This document shows positions 22,689 to 46,305 of a stretch of DNA of 64,000 bases, piece after piece. The stretch's first letter is position 1. Each line of letters opens with the position of its first letter. Under the pieces are notes generated by a model. It did not search any database. It saw only the letters and a program-made list of their open reading frames with translations, and was not told where the DNA came from. This stretch comes from a virus, in the IMG/VR virus record IMGVR_UViG_3300002026_000001, positions 32,001-96,000 of that record; one strand, given 5' to 3'. Position numbers and translations under genes: made by a program.

Positions 22689-22898
22689 TCAGAACGTCGT
22701 CGGTTGTAGTACTGCACGATTCAGGGCCATCAAACCAGTTTGCAGATCAGTAGCACCAATGTTTACCCAACGTTGGTCGAGTTCTTTTGTATGCCGCATG
22801 TCTGTAATAAGAGTGCCAAGTTCTGCACTCTTTTTTGCAATTTCTGCGAGGAAATCAACGTCTGGTGGCCTAACAGGAATGATTCGACTTGTATTCAT
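22689..22898 (-). CDS. acb2: Anti-CBASS cyclic-oligonucleotide sponge, Acb2 family (divergent N-terminus)
   Basis: C-terminal RWVNIGATDLQTGLMALNRAVLQPTTF closely matches the recalled Acb2 C-terminus [27 protein letters not shown]; TAATG overlap with the sheath stop. Confidence 0.8.
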   Translation of the reverse strand: MNTSRIIPVRPPDVDFLAEIAKKSAELGTLITDMRHTKELDQRWVNIGATDLQTGLMALNRAVLQPTTF

Positions 22899-24493
22899 TA
22901 GGCACCCGTTACGCGAACCCCAGTCTTGTTGATGATTGCATTGAAGTAAATACGCTTCGCTGGCAACGTCGGATCACACCAGAGGTCGACGATCATGTCA
23001 CCGGCGGCAATCGTATCAGGCAAGTTGTTCGTGTCGTCACAGATAGCATCAAACGCGTACAAACCTTCTCCATCCTTGATCTGCTGCAAGAACTTGCGGC
23101 AATTCATTTGGATGCGGCTGCGCAACAGTTGGTCATTAGGGTCAAAGACACTGTAGAGCAACGAGTTTGCAATCGTCTTTTCAATCACGATCATCAAGCG
23201 ACGCACGTTGATGTTGCTCAACGCACTTGGCATGACCTGAAGTGTATCAGCACCCCAAACCTTGATGCCAGCACCTTCAATGACACGGATTGCATTGACT
23301 TGTGAGTCGTACAGTGCATCGCGCATACCTTGATCGTAGACCTTGCGAACACCGGCCACCACCAAGTCACCGCGAATCATACCAGCCGGTGCAAACCATT
23401 GACGGAAGTCACGGTCAGTACGAGCATAGCAAGCCGCGATCATGCCGCTCACCGGAGTGTAGAGGCGAATGTCGTTGTACTTGTCAGCAACGTACACGTC
23501 AGGCGTATACAACGCTGAGTACGAACTGTCAAGATGCAGAGTATCGCGTCGGAAACTGATCACGTCTTGCAACGCTTGCATGTCGCTCGGGGCATCGAGA
23601 ATTGCGATGCAGTCCATACGTGCTTGGCACAGGTCATCCAGCGCCATTTGGAACGATGGGTCTGTGATGCCGCTGTTGATAAACATGCTAACCTGAATGG
23701 CTTCAGGGTCTTGGTAAAGATCAAGGGCGTTTATGAAATCCGACGTCGTCGCGCGAGTACCGTCAACACCACCAACCAGTTGGATACCGGGAAGACTTGC
23801 GTTTCCACCGGTCAGCAACGTGTTGACCAACTGCGCTTTCGGGTTTGCAACAAACTCGGCGTTGTCTTCGTTCTGCACGATACGGATGTAACCGGATTTG
23901 CGGTTGATCTGCTCGGCAACGTTTAGCTGCACACCAAACCCGTCAACAACATGATCGAGGCTGCAATACCATGACTCGACCGGAAGCGCGATGCTCTGCA
24001 CGAACACTTGGATCGTGAAGAAGCCGACGCCGCGACGCGGATCAGTATTCGGAATCACACGAATGCACAGGTCACTGTTCCACGCGCCGGGGTTGATCGC
24101 GTGGACAGCAAACAGGCCGTTTGCTTCAAAAGCAATGTCATCAGGTGACGCAACACCGGACGCGAACGAAGACGAAACGTTTAGCGTGTGTGCTGCATTG
24201 CGGCTGACTTTACACCCACCAAGCAAAGCACCCGGTGCGACCCGCGTGACATACAATTGGTTGCCTTCTGTCAGGAAAGCGAGTGCGCTGTAACCCAACC
24301 AGCTTAAAGACGCGTCAGGCTTGCCAAACAAGTTGACGTAGTCGCTTTCTGACGTCACCAACGTTGCTTTTCCAACTGGACCTCGACGTGCTTCGCCGAT
24401 CACCACACCAATGGTGGCCAAAGACATTTGCGGCCTTTGGCTAAAATCGTTTTCAGTCACGTAGACGCCCGGACTTGTACCAGTGATACTCAT
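22898..24493 (-). CDS. Tail sheath protein (gp18-like)
   Basis: SPGVY..E.D, FGKP, WFAPAG..RG, VWG..TL, INVRRL, IYFN motifs; start at MSITGTSPG. Confidence 0.92.
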   Translation of the reverse strand: MSITGTSPGVYVTENDFSQRPQMSLATIGVVIGEARRGPVGKATLVTSESDYVNLFGKPDASLSWLGYSALAFLTEGNQLYVTRVAPGALLGGCKVSRNAAHTLNVSSSFASGVASPDDIAFEANGLFAVHAINPGAWNSDLCIRVIPNTDPRRGVGFFTIQVFVQSIALPVESWYCSLDHVVDGFGVQLNVAEQINRKSGYIRIVQNEDNAEFVANPKAQLVNTLLTGGNASLPGIQLVGGVDGTRATTSDFINALDLYQDPEAIQVSMFINSGITDPSFQMALDDLCQARMDCIAILDAPSDMQALQDVISFRRDTLHLDSSYSALYTPDVYVADKYNDIRLYTPVSGMIAACYARTDRDFRQWFAPAGMIRGDLVVAGVRKVYDQGMRDALYDSQVNAIRVIEGAGIKVWGADTLQVMPSALSNINVRRLMIVIEKTIANSLLYSVFDPNDQLLRSRIQMNCRKFLQQIKDGEGLYAFDAICDDTNNLPDTIAAGDMIVDLWCDPTLPAKRIYFNAIINKTGVRVTGA

Positions 24494-24504
24494 AACTGCT
24501 CTCC

Positions 24505-24870
24505 TTAACTCCAAAGATACTGAAGGCGAATACGATCAACGCCATCTGGTGGTGAAATTATTACACTTCCTGTCTCACCGTTGTTAATAAAAAGACCTCT
24601 GCACTTCAAGGTGATTGACGTTGCGGCACCTGAAATGTCAACTACGAAGTCCTCTAAGCTACTCAACATCAAAACTGATTTTGTTGGGGGGATGTGCAGC
24701 GGACTCAACGCCGTTATGGTCACGTCGCCTTGGTTGAATACGCTGTCTGTAGGAATCGGTGCAGCTACGGAGCCTTTCAGGATGACAGACCGTGTAAGCA
24801 GGTCTGCCAACTGTACTTTGAATTCCGTGACTACAGTTTTGTCATAGGGAAGATGTTTCGGTGTGCTCAT
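24505..24870 (-). CDS. Hypothetical virion protein
   Basis: ORF in the tail operon with GGAG RBS before MSTPKH. Confidence 0.6.
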   Translation of the reverse strand: MSTPKHLPYDKTVVTEFKVQLADLLTRSVILKGSVAAPIPTDSVFNQGDVTITALSPLHIPPTKSVLMLSSLEDFVVDISGAATSITLKCRGLFINNGETGSVIISPPDGVDRIRLQYLWS

Positions 24871-25516: not shown

Positions 25517-25531
25517 AGACTCTCCCAAAGT

Positions 25532-25569
25532 AAAAAGCCCCGCCCTTCTTTGCAAAAAGGCAGGGCTTT
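25532..25569 (-). terminator. Rho-independent terminator
   Basis: Minus strand AAAGCCCTGCCTTTTTGCAAAGAAGGGCGGGGCTTTTT, a GC stem followed by a U-tract. Confidence 0.7.
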
Positions 25570-25586
25570 GTGTTTTGCTTGATAGA

Positions 25587-26237: not shown

Positions 26238-26300
26238 GTTTGTACTCCGTGTTAGATTTCTCAGATAAGACTACACACGTACATCGTATACTCTTATGTG

Positions 26301-26335
26301 AGAAAGACCGCCACCAATCGAAACTGGTGGCGGCC
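26301..26335 (-). terminator. Rho-independent terminator after the major capsid gene
   Basis: CCGCCACCA-loop-TGGTGGCGG stem followed by TCTTTCT on the minus strand. Confidence 0.75.
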
Positions 26336-30128: not shown

Positions 30129-30608
30129 TCACTTCAAAGATGATTCTATCTTTTGTAAGACGTCCGGTCTTGCAACCAACGTCTTTAAACCGGGATGTAA
30201 TGGGTGCGGCCACTTACCTTTCGCCGTCCACACAAACCCTTGTGTCTCCCAGTTAAGCGTCGGCACAAACTCGTCATCCACAACAGCAAGATAATTGTGG
30301 TATTTAAAACCTGACGGGTGTGCAAACACATACAAAGGAATCAAATCAAAGTGACCTGAGTAACCGGCCTCTTCTACAACTTCACGAATCACACCTTGCT
30401 TCGGTGTTTCACCGGGATCAATTGCACCGCCCCATGTTCCCCAAGTGTGAGGTTCAAGAACGTGCTCACTGCGATGTGCAATTAACAAACGACGTGTAGC
30501 ACGTGCTAGAAATAAGCAACCTGCTGCTTGTCGTCCCCAAAATCCTGTTTCTTCCAACGCGACGCCATGCTCGTTGTCCGAATTTGACATACTTATCGTA
30601 ATTCTCAT
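30129..30608 (-). CDS. NUDIX hydrolase with S-x-S leader (MRITISMSN)
   Basis: Complete Nudix box G-AIDPG-E-TPKQGVI-REVVEEAGY; GGAG RBS. Confidence 0.9.
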   Translation of the reverse strand: MRITISMSNSDNEHGVALEETGFWGRQAAGCLFLARATRRLLIAHRSEHVLEPHTWGTWGGAIDPGETPKQGVIREVVEEAGYSGHFDLIPLYVFAHPSGFKYHNYLAVVDDEFVPTLNWETQGFVWTAKGKWPHPLHPGLKTLVARPDVLQKIESSLK

Positions 30609-30637
30609 GGTGCGCAACTCCGGTCTTACAAGAGATT

Positions 30638-30644
30638 AAATTAG
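30638..30644 (-). promoter_or_regulatory. Putative phage promoter element CTAATTT
   Basis: Intergenic, upstream of the NUDIX gene. Confidence 0.5.
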
Positions 30645-31560: not shown

Positions 31561-32541
31561 TCAGAATGAACGAGCGTCGTAAACCGTTGGGCCGATTGCG
31601 CTAACAAACGCAGGTGTGTTGACACTTGAGCATTCAAACCCGATCCCATCTTCACACCAGCGGTGTGCAAGAACACCGTTCGGCATTTGGTATGTCGGCT
31701 TGCCCATTTGCGTGTGCGAACACGGACTAAGGTTGATACCACGACCGACGCGAGTCCCGCAGACAGAGCACGAGTAACTCTTGTAATAGAAGCCGACGCT
31801 GTAAGCGTTGTTCTCATTGCGCAGAATCGACTCTGCAAGTGCACTGTCTTTGGTGCGGTCATACGCAAGCAGCAACACGATCTTGTAAAACTTGTTGTTG
31901 AACGGGACCGGACGCAAGAACGAATCAAGGATCACACCTTTCGCTTGCGTGATGTCTTTGTTCTGATGTTCGACGTGTGTCGGCTTTCCCTTAAACGTCT
32001 TGTACATCTGCATGCCGAACTCTGGATCGAAGCGCAACATCTGTTTGAGCGTCAGACCATCACCGTTTGTGTTTGGCAACCCACTGAAGATTGCGGGGAT
32101 CGGCACCAACACATAGTCGCGAATGTCACGCGACAGACAATAGTGTTCCGCAGCGTAAGGCAACCAGTAGTTGCAATCAGACACGCGCTCGGTGAACCCT
32201 GTTCCAGACACGGTTTCAGGAACAATGATTTCCTTCGTGCCTTTCTTAAGCTGCTCACCTGCAAACGGCAGCAACGAACTCAGTCCAAAGCTGTTTGACG
32301 CAAACCGTTCAGGAATGTCAATCAACGGAGCGCCGTCAGCAGCGCACAAACTTGTTTCTTGACTGGCGGTAAATGAAGGTGTGTCGCTTGACACAAACTT
32401 GTAGCCACGCGAAATTGGAATCAACGCACCAACCGGTGCGCTATTACGTGACACAAGAAACGTGTTGTTGTGACTTGGACGCAGTGAATAGCCTTGCGAG
32501 GTCGCCCACTGTTGTGCGTTGTCAATGATAATCATGGTCAT
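31561..32541 (-). CDS. Prohead (capsid maturation) protease
   Basis: PN.NGD, HVEHQNKDITQAKGVILD, YSVG...CSVCG, FECSSVNTPAF herpes/HK97-type protease motifs; upstream of scaffold and MCP. Confidence 0.8.
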   Translation of the reverse strand: MTMIIIDNAQQWATSQGYSLRPSHNNTFLVSRNSAPVGALIPISRGYKFVSSDTPSFTASQETSLCAADGAPLIDIPERFASNSFGLSSLLPFAGEQLKKGTKEIIVPETVSGTGFTERVSDCNYWLPYAAEHYCLSRDIRDYVLVPIPAIFSGLPNTNGDGLTLKQMLRFDPEFGMQMYKTFKGKPTHVEHQNKDITQAKGVILDSFLRPVPFNNKFYKIVLLLAYDRTKDSALAESILRNENNAYSVGFYYKSYSCSVCGTRVGRGINLSPCSHTQMGKPTYQMPNGVLAHRWCEDGIGFECSSVNTPAFVSAIGPTVYDARSF

Positions 32542-36148: not shown

Positions 36149-38371
36149 TTACGCCTCAGTGGTTTTGTCTGTACTTGTCACGAAATATACGCATGCAATC
36201 CCAACCAGTGAGTTTGCGGAATTCTTCACATGAACAGAATAGTTGAGAATTTTCTTACCGTTAACTTGAATGACGTGCGGCTTTGTATCTGTGGACGTGT
36301 ATGCTGAGATTCGCTGGTCGGATATTGACATCCCTAGCAACTCCTCTTTTGACAGTCCGATCAATTGCTCAAATGCTTCGTTGCAACTGTTGACCAGCAA
36401 AGAACTGTCGAAGAAACAAACTGCGTGTCGGTCAAGAGAACCTGTCAGAGCCGAGTGCAGTGTCGATGCGCGACGAAGTTCAGTCACGTCAACGAAGCTG
36501 CCGATAAACCCTTCAGGCTTTCCTTCTGCGTTGCACAGAACCGAATGGTACACGACCATTTCACGGGCCTCTCGGTGCTTGTAGCTCCACAATGATACAT
36601 CAAATGACCGAACATTGCAATAGCCAGATTCGAGAAGTTGCTGTTCTTCTTGGTGCATGGTGGACAGCACGCCGATGAAATGCGACTCCTGCTCAAACAA
36701 CGTCTCGGACAGCAATGAGCGTGCGCCAGCCCTAACCAGATCATGCACATTCAAAACAGTCTTGCCGATTAGTTCTTCCTTTGTCGTCAGGAACAAATCA
36801 GCGAATGCTTGATTGCACATGACGTACTTGGAATCTTTGTCCTTGTAATAAATCGGAATCGGTGTCGCGTCAAAGATGCGTTGGTGAAACCGCTCTGCTG
36901 TCTTCAGGTTTGTAACGTCGGTCAGTAGGCAGAGCACGCCGTCAAATTCGCCAGAGACGTTTCGCAACGCTGACCTGTAGGCCACAGCATCACGAATCTC
37001 ACCAGTGATAGCATTTGGAATGCGCAACTCGTACGTCTGTGAATCAACCAAACCAGTTGTCAATTCAGTGTCGCGCAAGTTGTGTTCAGCCAACCCACTT
37101 GCAAACTGGCTTTGATATTCGGTAAGCTTGCACGCTGCGTTGTCTGCAATCATGTTCAACACATCAACTCTGGTCCGGCCAATGATCTGGTCGCGTGAAA
37201 GACCGATCAGTGTTTCGTACGCTAGGTTGCAACCGCAATACCGCAGGTCACGGTAAAGATAGTACACAGGGTTCTTGACGGACTCCATGAGCGTTGTCTG
37301 AAACCTCTGCACAGACAGTAGCTCTGTTAGGTCGACCATCGTCCCAACGGTTCCAGAAAATGCACCGGCCTTGTCACGCACTGCTGCCGAGTAAAGCGCG
37401 ATGTTGTGCGGAGTCTTGGTCCGTGATCCAAACACGATCAGGTTTTGCGTATTCACATCAGCCCGTTCAGCGTCATGCAGAAGCTCGTCAACACTGTCAA
37501 GGACTGACGCCGTGCTTGGTGGGAATATGTCAGAAGACGTTTTCCCCAAGATCATGTCAGGCCGCATTTCCATCAACTTGCAAAATGCTGCGTTGGCACC
37601 CAAGAACTTCAGGTCAGCGCCCTTATAGAACACCGGGTTTGGCATTGCCGACAACAAACCGAGTTGCAACTGCGTAAGGTTGTCGATCACTGCGTTCGCT
37701 GCAACCTGCTCCGACATATCCTTCAAGACCGCGATGAACACCAGATTGTCAAAGTTGTCCACGTCGATGTTTAGCACGTTGACGTAGGTGTTTATGTCAA
37801 GCACCTTGCCGGTCTTGTGGCAGCAGGTGAGTGAATGCACCTTGTTCAGTTCAGTGTTCTTCGACTGCACGTACAAGCGGTAGAAGTTTTTGCGCGTGAT
37901 AAATGGGGTTTGCTCAGTGCAAGTCTCGCGCATGTAGCGAACAAAGTTCTTTCCCTCGTCAAACAGAGACGCGGCGTTGATCTTGCGCCCAAGTAGAAAG
38001 CTAGACGAAGGCTTGCCGACCAACTCGTCATTCGTAAACCCCAAAAGACGTTCTGCGCTACTGTTGATTTCCAACACGTTGCCGTGGCAATCCAGACTGA
38101 TAAGAGCGTCCATCATGCTGTCCAAGATGGTAGCGTTTGTGCGTCTGGCCTTTTCCAACTCCGACGACAACGTCGCTGCCAACTTCACAGCCTCGTTCCG
38201 TGTTTCATGCACTTCGCGCTCAAGCGAAGAGTGTGTCTGTTCGAGACGCAAGAGGTCTTCCTTGCGTAAAATTGGCCGGGAAAAAGACATAACGTCAGCA
38301 AGCGTGCGAATCGTCTGCAAGTTTGTTGTATGCGCTCGACCGGGGATCAGGTTTTTCATAAACTTGAACAT
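36149..38371 (-). CDS. Coiled coil plus five tandem PAS domains, no output domain
   Basis: Five repeats of ...P.PV.Y.D...Y..cN.AF..L.G....L.GK.. closed by D.T linkers; the ORF ends directly after the fifth PAS. Confidence 0.85.
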   Translation of the reverse strand: MFKFMKNLIPGRAHTTNLQTIRTLADVMSFSRPILRKEDLLRLEQTHSSLEREVHETRNEAVKLAATLSSELEKARRTNATILDSMMDALISLDCHGNVLEINSSAERLLGFTNDELVGKPSSSFLLGRKINAASLFDEGKNFVRYMRETCTEQTPFITRKNFYRLYVQSKNTELNKVHSLTCCHKTGKVLDINTYVNVLNIDVDNFDNLVFIAVLKDMSEQVAANAVIDNLTQLQLGLLSAMPNPVFYKGADLKFLGANAAFCKLMEMRPDMILGKTSSDIFPPSTASVLDSVDELLHDAERADVNTQNLIVFGSRTKTPHNIALYSAAVRDKAGAFSGTVGTMVDLTELLSVQRFQTTLMESVKNPVYYLYRDLRYCGCNLAYETLIGLSRDQIIGRTRVDVLNMIADNAACKLTEYQSQFASGLAEHNLRDTELTTGLVDSQTYELRIPNAITGEIRDAVAYRSALRNVSGEFDGVLCLLTDVTNLKTAERFHQRIFDATPIPIYYKDKDSKYVMCNQAFADLFLTTKEELIGKTVLNVHDLVRAGARSLLSETLFEQESHFIGVLSTMHQEEQQLLESGYCNVRSFDVSLWSYKHREAREMVVYHSVLCNAEGKPEGFIGSFVDVTELRRASTLHSALTGSLDRHAVCFFDSSLLVNSCNEAFEQLIGLSKEELLGMSISDQRISAYTSTDTKPHVIQVNGKKILNYSVHVKNSANSLVGIACVYFVTSTDKTTEA

Positions 38372-38372
38372 G

Positions 38373-38696
38373 TCAACCACCACGTCTAGTCATTACTGAG
38401 ATAGTGGTAAGCACCGCTTTGACTTCACTGATTGCTTCACGAATGCTTATCTGGCTTTGGTGATACTTCTCAATGATCGAGAGAAGCATTTCACGTTCTT
38501 CACCATTCTTGTCGCTGATTAGCGTTTGCAGCTTGTCAACGACTTCTCTATACTGCTTAACGTCCTCGCGGTGTTCTTTGTTCGTGTTGTACTTGTTCCA
38601 AGCTAAATAGCCGATGATTAGCATCAGTATTGCGACAAGACCATTTCCGGTCCCGCCCAACACCGCGTCTACGAGTTTTCCTAGCGTTTCTGTCAT
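38373..38696 (-). CDS. Single-pass membrane plus coiled-coil protein (holin-like or PAS partner)
   Basis: TM GLVAILMLIIGYLAW followed by heptad-like helices; stop 1 nt before the PAS ATG. Confidence 0.6.
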   Translation of the reverse strand: MTETLGKLVDAVLGGTGNGLVAILMLIIGYLAWNKYNTNKEHREDVKQYREVVDKLQTLISDKNGEEREMLLSIIEKYHQSQISIREAISEVKAVLTTISVMTRRGG

Positions 38697-38722: not shown

Positions 38723-38729
38723 AAATTAG
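38723..38729 (-). promoter_or_regulatory. Putative phage promoter element CTAATTT
   Basis: Intergenic, just downstream of a terminator and upstream of the membrane-PAS-TopoIB genes. Confidence 0.5.
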
Positions 38730-38761: not shown

Positions 38762-38786
38762 AAAAAGCCCACCGAAGTGAGCGTTT
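38762..38786 (-). terminator. Rho-independent terminator with UUCG tetraloop
   Basis: GCTCAC-TTCG-GTGGGC-TTTTT on the minus strand. Confidence 0.8.
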
Positions 38787-38796
38787 GTCAGAGTCA

Positions 38797-39021
38797 TTAT
38801 TTTCCAGCGTTGGGCATCTTCTTCGCGACATTGTCGACAATGATTGCCATTTCTTCTTTGAACTTGTCGACGTCCTTACCGACAAACGCTTCTGCAACTG
38901 CGTTGCCAGTGTCGCCGCCGAGACCTTTCATCATTGCTGACAGGAAGATGCTGCGGTGGCCTTTCGGCTTTTTGCCTTTTGATTCTGAGACCGTGTTGCC
39001 AAATGCGATAAGAGTTTTCAT
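38797..39021 (-). CDS. Small hypothetical protein
   Basis: 74 aa, ATGA overlap with the upstream ORF. Confidence 0.6.
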   Translation of the reverse strand: MKTLIAFGNTVSESKGKKPKGHRSIFLSAMMKGLGGDTGNAVAEAFVGKDVDKFKEEMAIIVDNVAKKMPNAGK

Positions 39022-39185
39022 TTCAGTTCCTTTGAAGTGGTTGGTTTTTGACTCTGGTCTTTAATCACAAGTGCTTTCATAAGCTCAACTCCGTCATCGC
39101 GTAGCCTGACCAACAGAGTTTCTCCAATGTAATCCTTTGGCAATTGAATGGTGACGACACCATCGACCGGTACTTGTATCTTCAT
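39018..39185 (-). CDS. Small hypothetical protein
   Basis: Start at MKIQVP; coupled to neighbours. Confidence 0.55.
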   Translation of the reverse strand: MKIQVPVDGVVTIQLPKDYIGETLLVRLRDDGVELMKALVIKDQSQKPTTSKELK

Positions 39186-39189
39186 TATC

Positions 39190-39393
39190 TCATGTCCGAA
39201 GTAATCCAGATACTGCAAGTGAAATTATCGTTCGCTGCAACCGTGGTGCTGGTAGTTGCCCCATTAGCACCTGCATCAAACGTTTTGCTTCACCACGTTT
39301 ACGCTCGGCGCTGATCTGATCGGAAAGTGCCTTCCCAAGAAGCTTCTTTCCAAGATCGGTCATCCTTTTCAAATCTTCAGCATCCCTATCCAT
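39190..39393 (-). CDS. Small hypothetical protein
   Basis: 67 aa helical, AAGGA RBS. Confidence 0.55.
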   Translation of the reverse strand: MDRDAEDLKRMTDLGKKLLGKALSDQISAERKRGEAKRLMQVLMGQLPAPRLQRTIISLAVSGLLRT

Positions 39394-39414
39394 GCGCGAT
39401 TCCTTATGTCGTGT

Positions 39415-39972
39415 TTAACCGAAAAGAAACTCTTTGAACGCGTCTTCATACGTCTTTGTGTTGTTCTCGTTGCGAATCCCGTGGTTCATCCACTTAGTGA
39501 ACTCGGCAACGTCACTCTTCGCATGGCGTGCACGGTACCCGACGAACAGTAGTTGGGTTGGAACCTCATGGATTCCAGACTTCTTGAGGAATTCCATGCG
39601 TGCGCGACCTTCATGACCTTCAACAACTGCAAGACCACCTGTCCCATCAACAAATTCGTCGATGTTTAGATACAGGCACGGACAACCAAACCCGTACCCA
39701 TTGTCAACTTTGTCTTGCAAGTATGGAACGCGCTCTCCGACGTCTGCGTCAGGCTTTGCCAAATTCAGGTACGTGGCGGGTGACATCATAGTCATGCACC
39801 CTTTGTAAAGCACGTTTTGGTTGTCGGGCGTTGCACCAAGACCACCAACGTTGTCGATGTAGATCGTGCCTGTCAAACGGTACGCTGACTCGGCAACAGC
39901 TAATGAAAAGGTCGGGAGCTTTGCAACCTGATCCGGGGTACGCTTCTTGTTACTAGATACTGAAATCAACAT
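39415..39972 (-). CDS. ParB/sulfiredoxin-like fold protein (putative); S-x-S leader (MLISVSS)
   Basis: P.LYL...VVEGHEGRAR...G...VP matches the ParB-like G.HR motif. Confidence 0.5.
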   Translation of the reverse strand: MLISVSSNKKRTPDQVAKLPTFSLAVAESAYRLTGTIYIDNVGGLGATPDNQNVLYKGCMTMMSPATYLNLAKPDADVGERVPYLQDKVDNGYGFGCPCLYLNIDEFVDGTGGLAVVEGHEGRARMEFLKKSGIHEVPTQLLFVGYRARHAKSDVAEFTKWMNHGIRNENNTKTYEDAFKEFLFG

Positions 39973-39984
39973 AGTACAGTTCCT

Positions 39985-40623
39985 TTACAGCTTGTAGAAT
40001 TTACCAGAGCAGACGATCCCGTCTGCTCCTTCCTTTGTTGCAACGGCTTCAGTGCGACCGTCGACAACTTTCACAAAGTTCCACAAAACGTCACGACCAT
40101 CAATGTTGCTGTTCTTCTGAATACCGCCGTGGTAAGTTCCGGTCAGCTTTGAGATAAGAAGCTTTGCGGTGATCTTGGACGCTGACGTGCTGACTGTCCT
40201 TTTCCCATTAGACATTTTAACGCCTGTCTTTTGTATGAATGCAATAGCTTCCTTTACCTCTTTTGCACCACCATACAAAGGTTTGGAGTCAGAATTCCCC
40301 ATGAACTTTTTTACAAATTCAACTTCGTCAAACGGCCCCTTAACGGAGCAAGAGTTTTCCATCGAAAAGTCGACCTCAATCTCTTCTTTACTTCTCTGAC
40401 CTAAATAGTCTACTGGAAGTCCGTCAACGACCAACACCACGTGGGTTACTTCATATGGAATTGACCGGCTGAATTTCTCACCGTTAGTGTTGCTGAGAAT
40501 GAAAAGTCGACCTGAAGGGAAAATAGTTTTCAAGGCAACTGCGTAGATTCCACACCCCTCGCTCATGTAATAGTGACTGGTGTTGTGGGTTGCCGACAAA
40601 GCAAGGCTAATAACGGTTTTCAT
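39985..40623 (-). CDS. Papain/transglutaminase-like Cys-His-Asp protein (putative); leader MKTVISLALSA
   Basis: EGCGIYAVAL...THVVLVVDG..VDYLG. Confidence 0.5.
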   Translation of the reverse strand: MKTVISLALSATHNTSHYYMSEGCGIYAVALKTIFPSGRLFILSNTNGEKFSRSIPYEVTHVVLVVDGLPVDYLGQRSKEEIEVDFSMENSCSVKGPFDEVEFVKKFMGNSDSKPLYGGAKEVKEAIAFIQKTGVKMSNGKRTVSTSASKITAKLLISKLTGTYHGGIQKNSNIDGRDVLWNFVKVVDGRTEAVATKEGADGIVCSGKFYKL

Positions 40624-42629
40624 ATACCAAGTTCTTTGTTCAGTTGTTGGAGGCTGAGAATCTTGACCCCCTTTGCACGTGCAGCGTCCAATTTGCCGCT
40701 GCTGGCGTTGGGGTCTTTTGCGACCAACAATGTCGTTGTACCACTAACGCTGCCACCAACCTTACCGCCTTGTTCAGCAATTGCGGCCTCTGCTGCTGCG
40801 GAACGAACACCGGTAAACACAACGACCTGACCTGACATCTTGTTGCCGACAACTTTCGGTTTCACATCGGCCTTAAACGTGATAGGCAACGTCTGTAGGA
40901 ACAGGAAACACTTAGTCAGGTTTGCGATAATCGGTGCTGCTGACTTCTCTTTGAAACCTGCGACGTCTTGCAACTGCGCTTCGATGCTAAGTGCAGTGTG
41001 CTTGATCGACATATCGAACAGCTTCGGACGTGCTTCTTTCAGTGAACGAAGTTTACGTTCACCAAGCAAAGGCCCGAGAATACCGGACCCCGCCATAACC
41101 TTGACCAAGTCTGCGTTGGTGCATGCCTTCTCGATGTTGCCTTGAATCTTTTCTGCTTTGCGCAACTGCCAACCCGGAAGGTTGATGTAGTCTTTCACGC
41201 GCAACTTGATGATCTTGCCAACCGTGTCGTATCCAGCGGCAAACAACTGCTGCACAACACCGAGGCCCATGTCATCAACCATCAGACCTTTCTGGAAGAA
41301 GTGCGTGATAGCTTTCACCTTCGTCGTGTCATTGCCGTGAACACCGCCGCCAGTCGAGGACTTGAGAACAAACTGCGTACCATTCTCATCCCACTCATAA
41401 TCCCCAACCAGCTTCTTGTCAGGCAAAGACGCGTTTGCACTTGGCTTCACGACGCTTTGAATGTATGGGATAACTTCACCGCTACGAATGATTGCGACTG
41501 TCGAACCAACGTTGAGCTTGTTGTCGACGATGAACTTGGCGTTGTGTGCTGTTGCATGTGTGACTGTTACGCCAGCCAGCTTGACAGGTGCAACGGTGAT
41601 GCGCGGAACAATGCGACCATGACGTGAGGGACGCCATTCGATCAGCGTGACCTTGGTCTCAGCGTAGTTTCCTTCGCTCGGAGCTTTGAATGCAATCATC
41701 GACAACGGGTTGCGCTCTGTCAACTTGTACGGAACGTCTTGTGCAATGACGATCCCGTCAATCATGTGGTCGGCCTTCTCGCGTGCGCGAAGATATTTCA
41801 GAACCTGTTCCTCGTTGAGTGTCTTGGCGACGATGTGGTGAACGGTTTTGAAACCTTGGGCCTCTGCCCACTTGAGTGCGTCAGAGGGCTTCATGCGCTT
41901 GTGCAAAACGTCAAACACCAGCGGCTCTACTGAGCCTATTGCTTCGTGCATGCCGCGAGTCTTGTTGACGATCCCGCTAGTCAGATTTCGTGCATTCTTG
42001 TACTTGCCAGCCCACTTCTTTTCAAACTCGGACTTCGACATGATGATTTCAGCACGCACACCAGTCTCAGCACCAGTAGGTGCACGCTTTGGCAACTTCA
42101 AATGCTGGATCGCATGTGACCAATCCATCCCGTGAGTTGCGGTACCTCCCTTGTACAACTTGTCGAAAACTCCGTTGTGTGACAGAAGCTCCATCGACAC
42201 ACCGTCCAGCTTGTCACTGAGAATGTACGGGCCGGGGTGCTTTGCCGCCCACTTCGCTAGACTTCCGTCACCATAGTACTTCTTGTCCAACGACGGCATC
42301 AGGTACGGTAGCTCAACTTCAATCTGCTTGACACCGACAGGCGAACGCGTTTGCGCAACCAACTTGCTTTCAGGTTGCGCTTCCTTCAACGCGGCCTCAA
42401 GAACATCGTACCGCGCATCGGTGATTTCCAGAAACTTCGTTGTTACTTTTTTCGGTGTATCAGGCAACTCAATGTCGCCACGGACAAGTTTACCAAACGC
42501 AACAATCTCAGCGACCAACGGAGTCAGCTTTTCAACAGGGACTTTGAAAAACCTGTCCTTGTTGTAATACGTGTCCTTGGATACTTCGATCAATTTTGTA
42601 ATCTGTGAAATGTCACGTTTGGTAAACAT
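40620..42629 (-). CDS. ligA: NAD+-dependent DNA ligase
   Basis: YYN.D, MPSLDK, KLDG adenylation motif, DGIVI, AFK, OB fold, HhH repeats, C-terminal BRCT (VVFTG...VSGTTTLLV..KLDAA). Confidence 0.95.
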   Translation of the reverse strand: MFTKRDISQITKLIEVSKDTYYNKDRFFKVPVEKLTPLVAEIVAFGKLVRGDIELPDTPKKVTTKFLEITDARYDVLEAALKEAQPESKLVAQTRSPVGVKQIEVELPYLMPSLDKKYYGDGSLAKWAAKHPGPYILSDKLDGVSMELLSHNGVFDKLYKGGTATHGMDWSHAIQHLKLPKRAPTGAETGVRAEIIMSKSEFEKKWAGKYKNARNLTSGIVNKTRGMHEAIGSVEPLVFDVLHKRMKPSDALKWAEAQGFKTVHHIVAKTLNEEQVLKYLRAREKADHMIDGIVIAQDVPYKLTERNPLSMIAFKAPSEGNYAETKVTLIEWRPSRHGRIVPRITVAPVKLAGVTVTHATAHNAKFIVDNKLNVGSTVAIIRSGEVIPYIQSVVKPSANASLPDKKLVGDYEWDENGTQFVLKSSTGGGVHGNDTTKVKAITHFFQKGLMVDDMGLGVVQQLFAAGYDTVGKIIKLRVKDYINLPGWQLRKAEKIQGNIEKACTNADLVKVMAGSGILGPLLGERKLRSLKEARPKLFDMSIKHTALSIEAQLQDVAGFKEKSAAPIIANLTKCFLFLQTLPITFKADVKPKVVGNKMSGQVVVFTGVRSAAAEAAIAEQGGKVGGSVSGTTTLLVAKDPNASSGKLDAARAKGVKILSLQQLNKELGI

Positions 42630-42642: not shown

Positions 42643-43230
42643 TTATCGGGTTAAAACAATCTTGGCAAGAGCGGTTACAACCATAGGGTCGTACGTGGTT
42701 CCGCTTTTGATAATGTCAAGGGTTTCGGCTCTTGAAAATGCACGCTTGTAGGTTCTCGCTTGTGTCATTGCGTCAAAACCGTCTGCAACCGCAATAATAC
42801 GTGCCAGAAGATTTATGTCGCTCCCACTGACATTGTCTGGATAGCCTGACCCGTCGAAGTGTTCGTGAGTTTGAACGATTACGTCAGCAACTTCCTCAGA
42901 ACCGTCAATGCCGGACGCTTTAATGATCCTAGAGCCAGCATTTGAGTGTGTCTTCATCACTTCAAACTCAAGACTCGTCAACTCAAAATGACTGAGAAGA
43001 ATATTGTCAGGAATTCCAATCTTTCCAATATCGTGCATCAGGGATGCCACTTCAAGAACTTGCAGGGCTTCGTCTGGAAGGAAGCCCAAGCAGTCAGCAA
43101 GCAGCATAGAAAGTTTGTGGACTCGAATACAGTGCTCGGCGGTACGAGCGTCCTTTTCGAGAATGGCTTGCAACAGTGATGATTTTAAAGGGTTCATTCT
43201 TGGTATACTCTTCAAACCTGATTGTCCCAC
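42643..43230 (-). CDS. Stand-alone HD-GYP cyclic-dinucleotide phosphodiesterase
   Basis: H..RV, LMHDIGKIG, THEHFDGSGYP, IAVADGFDAM...R.YK; the start may be at 43197 (MNPLK). Confidence 0.9.
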   Translation of the reverse strand: MGQSGLKSIPRMNPLKSSLLQAILEKDARTAEHCIRVHKLSMLLADCLGFLPDEALQVLEVASLMHDIGKIGIPDNILLSHFELTSLEFEVMKTHSNAGSRIIKASGIDGSEEVADVIVQTHEHFDGSGYPDNVSGSDINLLARIIAVADGFDAMTQARTYKRAFSRAETLDIIKSGTTYDPMVVTALAKIVLTR

Positions 43231-43257
43231 ATCAGGTGTTGTGCAACAGAGACTAGT

Positions 43258-43581
43258 CTACCCTTTGGGATTTTTTTCTTGAAACTCTTTGTATAGTTTT
43301 TTGACCTTGTCCTTATTGCGTGGAACGTCGGAGTCAAGCTTCAACATTAGACGCACGGCTTCGAGCTTCGACTCAACTTCATCGAGCCACTCGTTATGTT
43401 CTGCCACACCTTCTGAATCTTGGTGGTTGGAGTCAATCCATTGCTTGAAACGCTTTGCTTCTGCAACGTACTGCGGTATGAAATCCATCAGCACTATTAT
43501 TGGGAATGGCTGAGTGTAATCTGGAAGTGGGTGCTTACCAACTTCGTATTTAAAACCAGAGATAGAGATTTTCATGGTCAT
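43258..43581 (-). CDS. Hypothetical protein; leader MKISISG
   Basis: 107 aa, coupled ORF. Confidence 0.6.
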   Translation of the reverse strand: MTMKISISGFKYEVGKHPLPDYTQPFPIIVLMDFIPQYVAEAKRFKQWIDSNHQDSEGVAEHNEWLDEVESKLEAVRLMLKLDSDVPRNKDKVKKLYKEFQEKNPKG

Positions 43582-44684
43582 GACCGCTTATCCGAGATTT
43601 CCAGTTTAGCGTAGTAGGACAGTATCGTTCCAGAGAAGACACCGCCCCAAGGCATTCCAACATTTGCAACGACAGCCCTACCAGTTTGAAACTTGCCAAC
43701 TGGTAAGTTCTTTTGATCTACAATCATCTTGGCGAGTTTTTGAGCAGCACGTTGAAACTTTGGAAAGAAGTCCCAGCCCTTCAGGTCAAGAGTTGCTGGC
43801 TTATAGATTGCGGCCGTTACAGAAGTTGTTGTGACCTGCAAGACACAAACGACTTCACCTGTTTGACTACGCGCAGTGAATTTCGCGTAAGCAACACCGT
43901 TGTCAAACCCGTGTGAAATGTCAGTTTCTTTAGCGAGAGTCTTCGCGCATGCTAGTGCATACGGCTCGAAGTCATGACCTAGCACATCAAACAAACCGGT
44001 CAGCTTTACCTGACCTTTTTCAGGCTTCAGCAACGAAGAGCGTTTCTTCAACTCTCTGACAGAGTCTTCTTTGATTATGTAGACTACACCGTCGCGGATC
44101 ACGCACGGGTACCCTTTGAATGTCGTCAGCTTGAACAGCTTCCCCTTGCTCAACGTCAACACGCGTTCTCCAGAACGCATCTTAACCGGACGGTCAAAAT
44201 TGTACATGAAGTGCTGAACCTTCAGGTCAGCAGATGACGACATGAACTGGTCACTAGAAACCGATTCAGCAAAGTCCATTGCCATCTGACGTACGTCTTC
44301 GTCGGTCTCCGCTGTCCATTCACCGCGCTCTGGCGTGTATGCGCAATCACCTTCCTTTACAGTGTCCCCAATCTGGAACCCGTAGATTGCGCGGTGTGAC
44401 CAACCGTACCACTTTCCATCTTTCTCAGAAAACCCAATACTGCAAACGGTGTGGTCAGGTTTCGCCACCACCGGTGCAATGCCGTACTTGTCGCAATAGA
44501 TTTTCGCAGCCCTCACATCACCAATGTACTGACCTTGAGGGTTGTAAGCCGCTTCGATGGTGACAGGGTTTTCAGGATCAAACTTCATGCTCCAGACTTC
44601 GGTGTTGACAACGTACAAGCCTTTGTCCACGCTATCCAGAACAACCTTTTCAATATCGCTACAAAGACTTATAAACATGGTCAA
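43578..44684 (-). CDS. Hypothetical protein; leader MFISLCS
   Basis: 368 aa; GFSEKDGKWYGWSHRAIYGF domain. Confidence 0.65.
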   Translation of the reverse strand: MTMFISLCSDIEKVVLDSVDKGLYVVNTEVWSMKFDPENPVTIEAAYNPQGQYIGDVRAAKIYCDKYGIAPVVAKPDHTVCSIGFSEKDGKWYGWSHRAIYGFQIGDTVKEGDCAYTPERGEWTAETDEDVRQMAMDFAESVSSDQFMSSSADLKVQHFMYNFDRPVKMRSGERVLTLSKGKLFKLTTFKGYPCVIRDGVVYIIKEDSVRELKKRSSLLKPEKGQVKLTGLFDVLGHDFEPYALACAKTLAKETDISHGFDNGVAYAKFTARSQTGEVVCVLQVTTTSVTAAIYKPATLDLKGWDFFPKFQRAAQKLAKMIVDQKNLPVGKFQTGRAVVANVGMPWGGVFSGTILSYYAKLEISDKRS

Positions 44685-45055
44685 CTCCGTTTGAGGACTT
44701 TCAACTTCGCAACGTCTAGTGCAATGTACATGTCGCCGACCGCACCGTAATCACGAAAGCCTTTGATCTTTATCAGGTCACAGCGTCGGCGACGTGCGTC
44801 GGCAATAACCTTTTCAATGTCTTCCAGTTCGTGTTCTTCTGGAATCTTTTTCCCATCGACTTCGTACATGTTGTCGTAGTCGACCCGAACAGTGTAGAGA
44901 ATCTTGCCAAAGCGTTGCGCACGAACTTTGGAAGGCGTCAGAAAAACTCCACCTTCGGCAGACGAGTCCAATGAAAACGTGTTGAACTCTTTTCCGCTGC
45001 CGTGATACAAGATGATGAATTTCGGTTTAGCTGACAGCGAGACGAGTACTAACAT
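44681..45055 (-). CDS. ADP-ribosyltransferase-like protein (ART-PolyVal-type); leader MLVLVSLSA
   Basis: LYHGS..F..F....GVFLT...A..FG..LY.V.V....D.I.I...D.Y.A.D pattern. Confidence 0.65.
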   Translation of the reverse strand: MLVLVSLSAKPKFIILYHGSGKEFNTFSLDSSAEGGVFLTPSKVRAQRFGKILYTVRVDYDNMYEVDGKKIPEEHELEDIEKVIADARRRRCDLIKIKGFRDYGAVGDMYIALDVAKLKVLKRS

Positions 45056-45058
45056 GGC

Positions 45059-45811
45059 TCACCTGATTTTGATTTTGATCTTGCCAGCAGACTCACTACG
45101 AGTGTAGCGGCGGAACTCTTCCGGCAACTCGGTGTCTGTGAAGTCGTCTTCGTCAGGAAGTTCTAGACGGGACATCTTGACTTTGACTGGACCTTCATCA
45201 ACGTCGTCGTCAGCAACTAGCTGAGTGACTGTCGCCTTGCGCTTGATAGGCTTGACGATGATCGGATGCGTAGACACACCACCGATAACAACACGACGAA
45301 TATCGCGGATCAACGCTGTTCCATTGGCGGTCGCTGCTTTCTGGACTTGCTTGATACACCAGTTCTTGAAGTCAACGCGCTCGGCATCGTCTTTCAAACT
45401 CGGCAACGCTTTTTCAAACTTTGACAGTGTCAGAGTCGCAGCAGAACCAACGAGCTTCGCGTAAATTTGTTCACGCGAGACTGCAACCTTTACTGGTTGA
45501 CGTGCAACAACTTTCGGTGCAACAGGTTTCGCAGCCTTCACAGGCTTTTGGATAACCGGGGTCTTCCCCTTAAACTCTTTCGCCTTATCCATCAAGCGTT
45601 CACTCTTGGGAATTGCCAGACGGAAGGTGACACCAGTAGTCAGAAGAATCTCATCTTCCGGCTTTCCTTTGAGTTCTCGCACACCAAACAAATCGTTTTT
45701 GCTGATCTTAACCTTCTCATCTTTCACGGTCACGATGGTAGCGCGTTCACTACTATAGCGCATCCAGTAAAACTTTGCCGCATCAGCAGCAGATAGTGAG
45801 AGCATGTTCAT
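45059..45811 (-). CDS. Hypothetical protein; leader MNMLSLSA
   Basis: 250 aa, Lys/Pro/Ala linker and acidic tail. Confidence 0.65.
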   Translation of the reverse strand: MNMLSLSAADAAKFYWMRYSSERATIVTVKDEKVKISKNDLFGVRELKGKPEDEILLTTGVTFRLAIPKSERLMDKAKEFKGKTPVIQKPVKAAKPVAPKVVARQPVKVAVSREQIYAKLVGSAATLTLSKFEKALPSLKDDAERVDFKNWCIKQVQKAATANGTALIRDIRRVVIGGVSTHPIIVKPIKRKATVTQLVADDDVDEGPVKVKMSRLELPDEDDFTDTELPEEFRRYTRSESAGKIKIKIR

Positions 45812-46305
45812 TCCTTAATGTCCTCGAAATTCTCGCCACCAAAAGCTAGACGCAGGTTTGCGTCTTGAACAGCCTTGTTAATGGTTTTGAGAGTTGCAGC
45901 GGGAAGACTTCCGTAACCGCTTGCAAGTGTTACGTGTGGTTCATAGGTTGGGAAACTGTGTACGGCACCAGTCGCCAACCAGTGGCGGTGACGAGCCTGA
46001 AGATCGTCAGAGTAAAGAGCAGCAACCAGATAACCCTTTTGGTCATGGCCCGGCCACTGTTTGATTGAATCGACCATAGCATCGAACTGCCGATCACCCT
46101 TCTCAGCAACATCAACAGCTATCAATTGGTGAGGTTGGTGGTAACGACTGTACATTAGCGTGCAGTGCGCTTCGTCTAGATCGAGCATAAAGTCAGGTGG
46201 CAGCAGCGGAGTGATAACGTTGAGAAGCCGACGCATTCCGTAAACGGGAGTCACACAAACATAGATGCCGGACTTTCCAGAATAACGTGTAGTTGTTTTC
46301 ATCAC
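45808..46305 (-). CDS. acb1: Anti-CBASS nuclease Acb1 (T4 gp57B-like 2H phosphoesterase)
   Basis: GIYV...HCTLMYSR...W...LVAALYSDDLQARH...GAVHSFPTYEPHVTL: both HxT motifs and flanks match T4 57B/Acb1 as recalled. Confidence 0.85.
   Translation of the reverse strand: MMKTTTRYSGKSGIYVCVTPVYGMRRLLNVITPLLPPDFMLDLDEAHCTLMYSRYHQPHQLIAVDVAEKGDRQFDAMVDSIKQWPGHDQKGYLVAALYSDDLQARHRHWLATGAVHSFPTYEPHVTLASGYGSLPAATLKTINKAVQDANLRLAFGGENFEDIKE

What the first reader, a model, noticed from the sequence alone, without database searches (positions are those of the whole stretch)
22689..46305. Layered arsenal against nucleotide second messengers embedded among late genes
Seen within about 24 kb: an Acb2-like sponge, a NUDIX hydrolase, an HD-GYP phosphodiesterase, an Acb1-like 2H phosphoesterase and an ART-like enzyme, interleaved with head and tail genes. 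Established: Acb1 degrades and Acb2 sequesters CBASS signals; some HD-GYP proteins cleave 3'3'-cGAMP; CBASS is often triggered late, by virion assembly components. Inference: complementary coverage (degrade dinucleotides, sequester trinucleotides, hydrolyse linear or ADPR-type signals) timed with capsid assembly. The uncharacterised neighbours (43258-46796) are good candidates for new anti-defence genes.
Basis: inference. Interest (0 to 1): 0.7.

Follow-up and report, generated by a model that had tools for sequence, protein, structure and literature searches.

The report
Phage anti-signalling gene set among head genes
A fragment of an uncultured giant phage carries, between its portal and capsid genes, three recognisable inhibitors of bacterial alarm-molecule immunity (Acb1, an unusual Acb2, a Tad6 fusion) plus three enzymes of unproven role, and several of them bear a shared N-terminal tag that may load them into the virus head.

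Summary
Pfam finds an Acb2/Tad1 hairpin protein (22689-22898), a NUDIX hydrolase with a complete Nudix box (30129-30617), a stand-alone HD-GYP domain (42643-43230) and an Acb1 with both H-x-T motifs (45808-46305). The ART-like gene (44681-45055) is only weakly supported. One 'uncharacterised neighbour' (43578-44684) holds a strong Tad6 domain (Thoeris ThsB inhibitor) fused to a new two-domain module. The genes are truly late: the island lies between an intein-split portal gene and the prohead protease and capsid genes.

Several signal inhibitors in one phage is already known from T4, so the concept is not new. Roles for NUDIX, HD-GYP and ART in defence are unproven. The Acb2-like protein lacks the Tyr/Lys dinucleotide site and keeps the Arg/Thr trinucleotide site. 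The HD-GYP has Thr in place of an essential metal-binding His, and HD-GYP is almost absent from known phages.

'Timed with capsid assembly' has no support. A better lead is a short tag (M-K-I-x-[ILV]-S-[ILV]-S), conserved at protein level, on the Tad6 fusion, ART-like, NUDIX and neighbouring proteins. It suggests capsid loading and injection. The scan noted similar tags in other giant phages.

The parts
22689..22898 (-). Acb2-type sponge, short form (69 aa), lying between the sheath and tube genes. It lacks the Tyr/Lys dinucleotide site and keeps the Arg43/Thr50 trinucleotide site.
   Evidence: Pfam PF24729, E 1.6e-9. Solved Acb2 (p26, 8ixz) aligns at residues 42-69. Alignment A1. 57 of 71 extracted relatives show the G-[YFW]-R motif near the N-terminus, and most of the other 14 are start-call artefacts that also carry it; 69 of 71 keep R..T.
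30129..30617 (-). NUDIX hydrolase with the N-terminal tag MRITISMS (likely start at 30608). It lies between the prohead protease gene and a 610-aa head gene.
   Evidence: Pfam NUDIX, E 1.9e-12. phrog_1198, E 5.9e-22. Complete Nudix box. CTAATTT motif at 30638-30644.
42643..43230 (-). Stand-alone HD-GYP domain protein, untagged. Thr121 stands at the position of an essential metal-binding His.
   Evidence: Pfam HD_5, E 1.3e-30. Alignment to PmGH 4mcw read against PMC4159591. Alignment A5. No PHROG match.
43258..43581 (-). 107-aa orphan protein with tag MKISISG.
   Evidence: No Pfam or PHROG match. Tag shown.
43578..44684 (-). Tad6-domain protein (residues 22-143) fused to a new C-terminal module (residues 151-368): an SH3-like barrel plus an alpha/beta domain. 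Tag MFISLCS.
   Evidence: Pfam PF25188, E 1.6e-43. C-terminal family of 23 representative clusters plus a second Tad6 fusion, P0049. Model pLDDT 94.6. Fold matches weak.
44681..45055 (-). ART/RES-superfamily-like protein (124 aa) with tag MLVLVSLS.
   Evidence: Pfam ART-PolyVal, 27.5 bits against a 31.2 cut-off. Model pLDDT 65. Fold matches: NatT Z 5.9, MbcT 4.9, ParT 4.7, PARP2 4.2.
45059..45811 (-). 250-aa orphan protein with tag MNMLSLSA, a Lys/Pro/Val-rich linker and an acidic tail.
   Evidence: Only phrog_35607, E 1.3e-4. Atlas gave nothing usable.
45808..46305 (-). Acb1 2H phosphoesterase, untagged.
   Evidence: Pfam PF23474, E 5.3e-17. Motifs HCT and HVT. Solved Acb1 7t26 and 9q2g.
46302..46796 (-). 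164-aa orphan protein. Its ORF overlaps the portal ORF upstream and the Acb1 ORF downstream by 4 nt each.
   Evidence: No Pfam or PHROG match. Atlas gave nothing usable.
46793..50113 (-). Portal protein interrupted by an intein with a LAGLIDADG endonuclease. It forms the upstream border of the island.
   Evidence: phrog_16240, E 4.9e-192. Pfam Intein_splicing and LAGLIDADG_3.
40620..42629 (-). NAD-dependent DNA ligase, directly downstream of the HD-GYP gene.
   Evidence: Pfam DNA_ligase_OB, DNA_ligase_aden and BRCT.
38797..40623 (-). Five small orphan ORFs. The 212-aa and 185-aa products carry the tag. A terminator-like hairpin follows at 38767-38782.
   Evidence: No Pfam or PHROG match. Tags shown. 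Terminator scan.
31561..32541 (-). Prohead maturation protease.
   Evidence: phrog_18299, E 6.7e-79.

Best explanation
The window is part of a roughly half-complete contig of an uncultured giant myovirus distantly related to Pseudomonas phage PaBG.

Shown by homology and residues: its late (packaging and head) module has taken up accessory genes, and at least three of them counter nucleotide-signalling immunity.
1. Acb1 should cleave CBASS cyclic di- and trinucleotides.
2. A short Acb2-type protein should act as a sponge. Because it has lost the Tyr/Lys dinucleotide site and kept the Arg/Thr site, it most likely binds only cyclic trinucleotides such as cA3.
3. A Tad6 domain should bind the Thoeris ThsB sensor and block signal synthesis.

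Inferred: the HD-GYP protein either cleaves or merely binds c-di-GMP or 3'3'-cGAMP, and c-di-GMP is not among Acb1's listed substrates. The NUDIX and ART/RES-like enzymes act on ADP-ribose- or NAD-type molecules or on host proteins.

Inferred: the genes sit among head genes not for timing but because a subset carries a short N-terminal tag that loads them into the prohead. They would then be injected with the DNA at the next infection. The tagged subset is the Tad6 fusion, the ART-like protein, NUDIX, the 107-, 250-, 185- and 212-aa proteins, topoisomerase IB and the 662-aa protein. Acb1, Acb2 and HD-GYP are untagged and would act after expression in the cell.
For: Family assignment and catalytic or binding residues. 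Published functions: PMC10312549 (Acb2 sites), PMC10419184 (Acb1 substrates), PMC13728456 (Tad6 binds ThsB).

Late-module position.

Recurrence of the pairing in other phages:
- Ralstonia phage RP13 has Tad6 and Acb1 as adjacent genes.
- The distant relative L047 has TopoIB, Acb1, ligase and Tad6 within 8 kb.
- The relative L040 has a Tad6 gene between the homologue of the 662-aa gene and the protease gene.

The tag:
- The motif [ILVM]S[ILVMN]S falls within the first 17 residues in 8 proteins (9 matches), against 1.7 matches expected.
- A scoring matrix built only from L040 leaders ranks 7 N-termini of this genome above all 759 internal-Met controls. Five of the 7 lie in the portal-to-capsid interval, which holds 23 of the 152 genes scored (hypergeometric about 9e-4, computed by hand from the counts).
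- Ser, Ile and Leu codons differ between genes, so the conservation is at protein level.
- Orthologues in L040 keep the tag.
- The tag is disordered in the ART-like model.

Precedents:
- T4 internal proteins and their capsid targeting sequence (PMC3012670).
- A Tad6-family protein of phage YerA41 is annotated 'structural protein', and that phage's virion protein set came from virion mass spectrometry (PMC7354516).
- The Tad6 domain occurs in an 823-aa polyvalent-type protein of phage NCTB.
Against: - No activity, expression or virion data exist for this phage.
- The HD-GYP has Thr at an essential metal ligand and Arg at the variable one, so hydrolysis is doubtful (PMC4159591).
- HD-GYP loci elsewhere in IMG/VR lie next to none of Acb1, Tad6 or Acb2.
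- NUDIX resembles generic MutT, RenU and DIPP enzymes.
- ART membership is below the Pfam threshold.
- Only 2 of 80 Tad6 loci in IMG/VR hold an Acb1 within 8 kb, so the pairing is not general.
- The tag has no clear protease cut motif after it, and its register varies.
- The Tad6 residues that contact ThsB were not checked.
Confidence: 0.55

Rival explanations
1. All five or six genes form one coordinated system that degrades, sequesters or hydrolyses different immune signals, and it is expressed late so as to coincide with CBASS triggering by capsid and tail proteins.
For: The genes do lie in the late module. The Acb1, Acb2 and Tad6 assignments are solid. The Acb2 residue pattern fits a division of labour with Acb1.
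Against: - No timing data exist. The CTAATTT motif upstream of the NUDIX, PAS and portal operons also precedes genes in the replication region, so it does not mark late genes only.
- Tad6 acts on the sensor protein, not on a signal (PMC13728456).
- NUDIX, HD-GYP and ART have no link to defence.
- The shared tag is left unexplained.
Confidence: 0.2
2. Only Acb1, Acb2 and Tad6 are anti-defence genes. The HD-GYP protein instead belongs to a phage take-over of host c-di-GMP signalling, together with the output-less five-PAS protein (36149-38383) and a stand-alone receiver domain elsewhere in the genome. NUDIX is nucleotide-pool or RNA-cap housekeeping. The ART-like protein modifies host proteins, as T4 Alt does.
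For: - REC-HD-GYP and PAS-HD-GYP are the usual bacterial architectures (10.1101/2021.11.05.467447).
- Most IMG/VR HD-GYP loci are REC fusions whose REC part matches this genome's own REC protein.
- The closest homologues outside the T-variant clade are bacterial stand-alone c-di-GMP phosphodiesterases.
- NUDIX best matches phrog_1198, MutT/NUDIX.
Against: The HD-GYP gene is 27 nt downstream of the tagged 107-aa gene and three genes from Tad6, not next to the PAS or REC genes. Its metal site is altered. Nothing shows that the PAS, REC and HD-GYP proteins interact.
Confidence: 0.35
3. The grouping is passive accretion. The portal-to-protease interval is simply a permissive insertion site for unrelated accessory genes, with no functional coordination and no packaging role for the N-terminal motif.
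For: Gene content at this site differs between relatives. L040 has DUF5856, GNAT-like and other genes there, and L047 has another order. None of the island's orphan genes, the ART-like gene or the HD-GYP gene has a homologue in L040 or L047.
Against: The tag is conserved at protein level across unrelated proteins and across relatives. Tad6 and Acb1 lie together again in RP13 and L047.
Confidence: 0.2

Closest known systems
Phage T4 set of signal inhibitors: Acb1 (57B), Acb2 (Vs.4) and the Sequestin-family sponge Y16O
   Same: One phage encodes a nuclease and sponges against CBASS together with a Thoeris inhibitor (10.1101/2025.07.12.664507).
   Different: Here the Thoeris inhibitor is Tad6, which binds the ThsB protein rather than the signal. 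The genes sit inside the head module. The Acb2 lacks the dinucleotide site. HD-GYP, NUDIX and ART-like genes are added.
Acb2 of Pseudomonas phage PaMx33 (PDB 8ixz, 8h2j)
   Same: The C-terminal helix is closely similar (residues 42-69 against 65-92). R67 and T74, which bind cA3, are kept as R43 and T50 (PMC10312549).
   Different: It is 69 aa against 92-93 aa. The Y11 position is Ile and the K26 position is Ala. Most of the 71 extracted short-form relatives keep the Tyr.
Tad6, type I Thoeris inhibitor (Pfam PF25188)
   Same: Strong domain match, 148.7 bits, with the conserved core GFSEKDGKWYGWSHRAI-GF-IGD.
   Different: It is fused to a 218-aa module of unknown function, which also occurs as stand-alone proteins of about 205 aa and in one other Tad6 fusion. 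It carries an N-terminal tag.
HD-GYP phosphodiesterases PmGH (4mcw) and V-cGAP3 (5z7c)
   Same: HD and GYP motifs, six of eight metal ligands, catalytic D183/K225 and substrate-binding R314/K317/Y285 are conserved (PMC4159591).
   Different: It is stand-alone and phage-encoded. H276 is replaced by Thr and E185 by Arg. No PHROG family matches. Among 50,697 phage records the only hits are unannotated faecal contigs and one record whose locus carries bacterial housekeeping genes.
Capsid targeting sequence of T4 internal proteins IPI-III and Alt; P1 Dar proteins; polyvalent proteins of phages
   Same: Unrelated proteins, some anti-defence, share a short N-terminal peptide and are encoded with head genes (PMC3012670).
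   Different: The tag sequence is different (M-K-I-x-[ILV]-S-[ILV]-S). No Glu-type cut site follows it consistently. No virion data exist.

Membership tests
Acb1 (anti-CBASS 2H phosphoesterase) | Pfam PF23474 match above the curated cut-off | tested here: met
   62.3 bits against a cut-off of 27.
Acb1 (anti-CBASS 2H phosphoesterase) | Two H-x-T/S catalytic motifs | tested here: met
   HCT and HVT are present. Both align with the motifs of solved Acb1 7t26 and 9q2g.
Acb1 (anti-CBASS 2H phosphoesterase) | [quoted passage not shown] | not testable with these tools
   Needs an enzyme assay.
Acb2 (cyclic-oligonucleotide sponge) | Acb2/Tad1 hairpin domain | tested here: met
   PF24729, 38.3 bits against a cut-off of 27.
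Acb2 (cyclic-oligonucleotide sponge) | Y11 and K26, which bind cyclic dinucleotides | tested here: not met
   Ile6 and Ala21 stand at these columns, and the protein has no Tyr at all.
Acb2 (cyclic-oligonucleotide sponge) | R67 and T74, which bind cyclic trinucleotides | tested here: met
   R43 and T50 are invariant in alignment A1.
Acb2 (cyclic-oligonucleotide sponge) | Homo-hexamer | not tested
   No complex prediction was run.
Tad6 (ThsB inhibitor) | Pfam PF25188 match above the cut-off | tested here: met
   148.7 bits against a cut-off of 27, residues 22-143.
Tad6 (ThsB inhibitor) | Loop that enters the ThsB active site; binding to ThsB | not tested
   The host ThsB is unknown and the published loop residues were not at hand.
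HD-GYP phosphodiesterase | HD and GYP motifs, with substrate-binding Arg, Lys and Tyr | tested here: met
   H66-D67, G129-Y130-P131, R159 and K162.
HD-GYP phosphodiesterase | Full set of metal ligands (PmGH H189, H221, D222, H250, H276, H277, D305, plus or minus E185) | tested here: not met
   The H276 position is Thr121 and the E185 position is Arg29. The other six ligands are kept (PMC4159591).
NUDIX hydrolase | Nudix box G-x5-E-x7-R-E-U-x-E-E-x-G-U | tested here: met
   GAIDPGE-TPKQGVI-REVVEEAGY. Pfam 47.8 bits against a cut-off of 21.1.
NUDIX hydrolase | Substrate class (ADP-ribose, NAD(H), ApnA, RNA caps) | tested here: inconclusive
   The best solved relatives are RenU and DIPP1, at E about 1e-5 only.
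ADP-ribosyltransferase superfamily (ART-PolyVal) | Family profile match or ART fold | tested here: inconclusive
   27.5 bits against a cut-off of 31.2. Model pLDDT 65. Best Z 5.9 (rmsd 2.5, 93 aligned) to NatT. The top-ranked rows are almost all ART/RES proteins, but every Z is under 8.
T4-type capsid targeting sequence | Same short N-terminal peptide on unrelated proteins encoded with head genes | tested here: met
T4-type capsid targeting sequence | Prohead-protease cut site at the end of the tag; presence of the proteins in virions | tested here: inconclusive
   No consistent motif follows the tag. No virion proteome exists.

The most novel reading that the evidence does not exclude
A giant phage pre-loads its capsid with immune inhibitors and NAD/ADP-ribose-directed enzymes (Tad6 fusion, ART/RES-like, NUDIX) by means of an eight-residue address tag. 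Thoeris sensing would then be blocked at the moment of DNA entry. Separately, an HD-GYP lineage with a remodelled metal site is a new phage family that neutralises c-di-GMP or cGAMP signals, which would fill a gap because c-di-GMP is not among Acb1's listed substrates.
Probability: 0.2. Interest if true: 0.8.

Novelty: new variant of a known kind. Interest (0 to 1): 0.6.

Why it matters
Multi-layer inhibition of signalling immunity is known from T4. Here it appears in an unrelated giant phage with three features that can each be tested directly:

- An Acb2 that should be specific for trinucleotides.
- A Tad6 fused to a new module that is also found alone, which makes that module a candidate anti-defence protein by fusion.
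- A phage HD-GYP, which is close to unprecedented.

If the N-terminal tag does load proteins into capsids, injected anti-defence cargo could be read from giant-phage genomes. That would also explain why such genes lie among head genes.

Tried and rejected
- **Close relatives.** Megablast of the head region against 50,697 phage records found nothing. Ligase-anchored searches found no close relative in IMG/VR or in JGI metagenomes.
- The contigs of the closest ART-like (P0044), HD-GYP (P0079, P0080) and Acb2-like (P0002) homologues could therefore not be read.
- **Orphan proteins.** The 164-aa and 250-aa orphans gave no usable Atlas hit, and the Atlas models had low confidence. Six of the eight small unknown proteins have no Pfam or PHROG match; the 250-aa protein has one weak PHROG hit, and the 74-, 66- and 67-aa ORFs have none. 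There are no paralogues within the genome.
- **C-terminal module of the Tad6 fusion.** Foldseek against the PDB gave nothing at E <= 0.001. VIA-align gave at best Z 7.0 to the lambda gpU tail terminator and about Z 5 to SH3/FeoA for the first 70 residues, which is too weak to assign a function. BFVD gave weak matches to PaBG and to KTSC-type polyvalent proteins.
- **Guilt by association for HD-GYP.** 21 IMG/VR loci were found. None lies next to Acb1, Tad6, Acb2 or the new module.
- **Tad6-Acb1 pairing.** It is not general: only 2 of 80 IMG/VR Tad6 loci have an Acb1 within 8 kb.
- **Other sponge families.** Tad2 (PF11195) and PF21825 are absent from this half-complete contig. The PF21825 search rang in no control genome, so that absence is uninformative.
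- **Promoters.** The sigma-70 promoter scan was at chance level.
- **Not run.** No complex prediction was run, because no host ThsB is known.

Full report
**What the DNA is.** The window is bases 32001-96000 of a single 132,836-bp contig. It is an IMG/VR virus record that CheckV rates about 50% complete. It has no near relative among 50,697 phage records. Its tail sheath is 39-40% identical to those of phage NCTB and Pseudomonas phage PaBG, both about 258 kb. It is therefore a fragment of an uncultured giant myovirus.

**Gene order.** From about 17.9 kb to the window's end, almost all genes are on the minus strand. In the direction of transcription the order is:
- terminase large subunit (50365-52545)
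- a 67-aa gene
- portal (46793-50113, phrog_16240 E 4.9e-192, split by an intein with a LAGLIDADG endonuclease)
- a 164-aa orphan, Acb1, a 250-aa orphan, the ART-like gene, the Tad6 fusion, a 107-aa orphan and HD-GYP
- NAD-dependent ligase
- five small orphans, followed by a terminator-like hairpin (38767-38782)
- a membrane protein, a five-PAS protein, topoisomerase IB and a 662-aa protein
- prohead protease, a 160-aa protein and NUDIX
- a 610-aa head protein, a virion protein and the major head protein
- further genes, then sheath, the Acb2-like gene, tube and baseplate

**Each component.**

*Acb1.* The protein from 45808-46305 passes the Pfam Acb1 cut-off and has both H-x-T motifs. It aligns with solved Acb1 structures.

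*Acb2-like.* The 69-aa protein passes the Acb2/Tad1 hairpin cut-off. It belongs to a widespread short subfamily of 69-77 aa, with 42 protein clusters and 207 IMG/VR loci. In PaMx33 Acb2, Y11 and K26 bind cyclic dinucleotides, while R67 and T74 bind cA3 in a separate pocket (PMC10312549). Of 71 relatives extracted, 57 show the G-[YFW]-R motif near the N-terminus, and most of the remaining 14 look like start-call artefacts of my extraction that also carry it. 69 of the 71 keep R..T. The window protein and one 65%-identical homologue have Ile and Ala at the Tyr and Lys columns, yet keep R43 and T50. It is thus a member of the fold family that fails one defining feature of Acb2. It most likely sequesters trinucleotides only.

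Tad6 is reported to bind the Thoeris sensor ThsB rather than the signal (PMC13728456). Residues 151-368 form a separate module:
- It has 23 representative clusters, mostly stand-alone proteins of about 205 aa, plus one further Tad6 fusion.
- It has no Pfam family.
- Its model is confident (pLDDT 94.6) and shows an SH3-like barrel followed by an alpha/beta domain.
- Its fold matches are weak. The best is Z 7.0 to the lambda tail terminator gpU.

*HD-GYP.* This protein is a true HD-GYP domain by motif and by homology to PmGH and V-cGAP3. I read the alignment against the PmGH paper (PMC4159591):
- Six metal ligands, the catalytic Asp/Lys pair and the substrate-binding Arg, Lys and Tyr are kept.
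- H276 is Thr121. The H276A mutant of PmGH is inactive.
- The variable ligand E185 is Arg.
- The Thr is shared with the two closest homologues, while bacterial stand-alone homologues have HHHE.

Hydrolytic competence is therefore uncertain, and a binding-only role is possible.

HD-GYP is nearly unknown in phages:
- It has no PHROG family.
- In the phage collection the hits are 27 unannotated faecal contigs and one 'Microcystis phage' record, whose locus carries secE, nusG, rplK and rplA.
- Twenty-one IMG/VR loci matched. They are mostly receiver-domain fusions, and none lies near Acb1, Tad6 or Acb2.

*NUDIX.* It has a complete Nudix box but only generic relatives.

*ART-like.* The protein scores below the Pfam cut-off. 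Its moderate model gives only weak matches, although the top-ranked ones are almost all ART/RES-superfamily proteins such as NatT, MbcT, ParT and PARP.

**Is the grouping meaningful?**
- Tad6 and Acb1 lie side by side in Ralstonia phage RP13.
- In a distant relative, L047, they lie within 6 kb of each other, on either side of the ligase gene.
- In a closer relative, L040, a Tad6 gene sits between the homologue of the 662-aa gene and the prohead protease gene.
- The pairing is not general, however: only 2 of 80 Tad6 loci have an Acb1 within 8 kb.
- The accessory content of the site differs between relatives.

The head module of this phage group therefore looks like a variable accessory site in which known anti-defence genes recur.

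**Why among late genes?** I found no support for the timing argument. The CTAATTT motif lies 20-50 nt upstream of about a dozen start codons. These include NUDIX, the PAS operon and the operon that runs from the 67-aa gene through portal and the island to the terminator. The motif also precedes genes in the replication region.

Many proteins in the portal-to-capsid interval begin with M-K/R-I-x-[ILV]-S-[ILV]-S. They include NUDIX, the 107-aa protein, the Tad6 fusion, the ART-like protein, the 250-, 185- and 212-aa proteins, topoisomerase IB and the 662-aa protein. The evidence is as follows:
- The core motif is enriched at N-termini: 9 matches in 8 proteins, against 1.7 matches expected.
- The relative L040 has the tag on about ten genes, including the orthologues.
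- Codons differ between genes, so the constraint is on the peptide.
- A scoring matrix built only from L040 leaders ranks seven N-termini of this genome above all 759 internal controls. Five of the seven lie in the interval, which holds 23 of the 152 genes scored (about 9e-4, computed by hand from the counts).

T4 loads diverse anti-restriction internal proteins through a shared capsid targeting sequence (PMC3012670). In addition, a Tad6-family protein of phage YerA41 is annotated 'structural protein', and that phage's virion protein set came from virion mass spectrometry (PMC7354516). The Tad6 domain also occurs in a large polyvalent-type protein of NCTB.

I therefore think it more likely than not that the tagged subset is virion cargo. 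No cut site, virion data or injection data exist, and the earlier scan notes on similar tags are not independent evidence. Acb1, the Acb2-like protein and HD-GYP lack the tag.

**Comparison and verdict.** A phage with several signal inhibitors is already described: T4 has Acb1, Acb2 and a Sequestin sponge (10.1101/2025.07.12.664507). The finding is thus a new variant of a known kind. Its worth lies in four specific, testable oddities:
- a Tyr-less Acb2
- a Tad6 fusion that points to a new candidate family
- a phage HD-GYP with an altered metal site
- a possible address tag on anti-defence cargo

A rival reading is that HD-GYP, the output-less five-PAS protein and a stand-alone receiver domain serve c-di-GMP signalling take-over rather than immune evasion. 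This remains open (10.1101/2021.11.05.467447).

Noticed in passing
window 46793-50113 (-): The portal gene is interrupted by an intein that carries a LAGLIDADG homing endonuclease. The portal PHROG match is split in two, and Pfam finds Intein_splicing, LAGLIDADG_3 and Hom_end.
   Followed up: partly
window 11816-62420; locus L040 467-10920: The N-terminal tag M-K/R-I-x-[ILV]-S-[ILV]-S sits on about a dozen unrelated proteins here and about ten in the relative L040. It is conserved at the amino-acid level, not the nucleotide level. The distant relative L047 instead shows a different recurring start, MK(Q/R)L(V/A/M), on Acb1, ligase, Tad6 and others.
   Followed up: partly
window 12139-12145, 16177-16183, 30638-30644, 38723-38729, 50356-50362, 60354-60360, and further sites in the genome: CTAATTT lies 20-50 nt upstream of about twelve start codons in intergenic DNA. 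It is probably a phage promoter element. It is not confined to structural genes.
   Followed up: partly
window 36149-38383 (-), 34537-36147 (-); genome 115850-116242 (-): A 744-aa protein made of five PAS domains has no output domain. It is followed by a eukaryotic/poxvirus-type topoisomerase IB that carries the tag. Elsewhere the genome encodes a stand-alone receiver domain similar to the REC part of viral REC-HD-GYP proteins.
   Followed up: partly
locus L004 (MW495066.1, 29664-40137): The record named Microcystis phage MaAM05 carries secE, nusG, rplK, rplA, coaD and trxB around its HD-GYP gene. This stretch looks like bacterial DNA.
   Followed up: no
loci L002 (YerA41_059), L001 (NCTB BN7874_171), L003 (RP13 ORF131-132): Unannotated members of the Tad6 family turn up in three phages. 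One is a 115-aa protein of YerA41 annotated 'structural protein'. One is an 823-aa NCTB protein that also has a KMPT-N domain. One is a 108-aa RP13 protein directly upstream of an unannotated Acb1.
   Followed up: partly
loci L085-L164: Three of 80 loci of the short Acb2 subfamily also hold an Acb1 homologue within 4 kb.
   Followed up: no
window 30129-30617 (-): NUDIX gives a weak match (E 2.4e-4) to a PHROG annotated as portal protein. This hints that some phage portals carry a fused Nudix domain.
   Followed up: no
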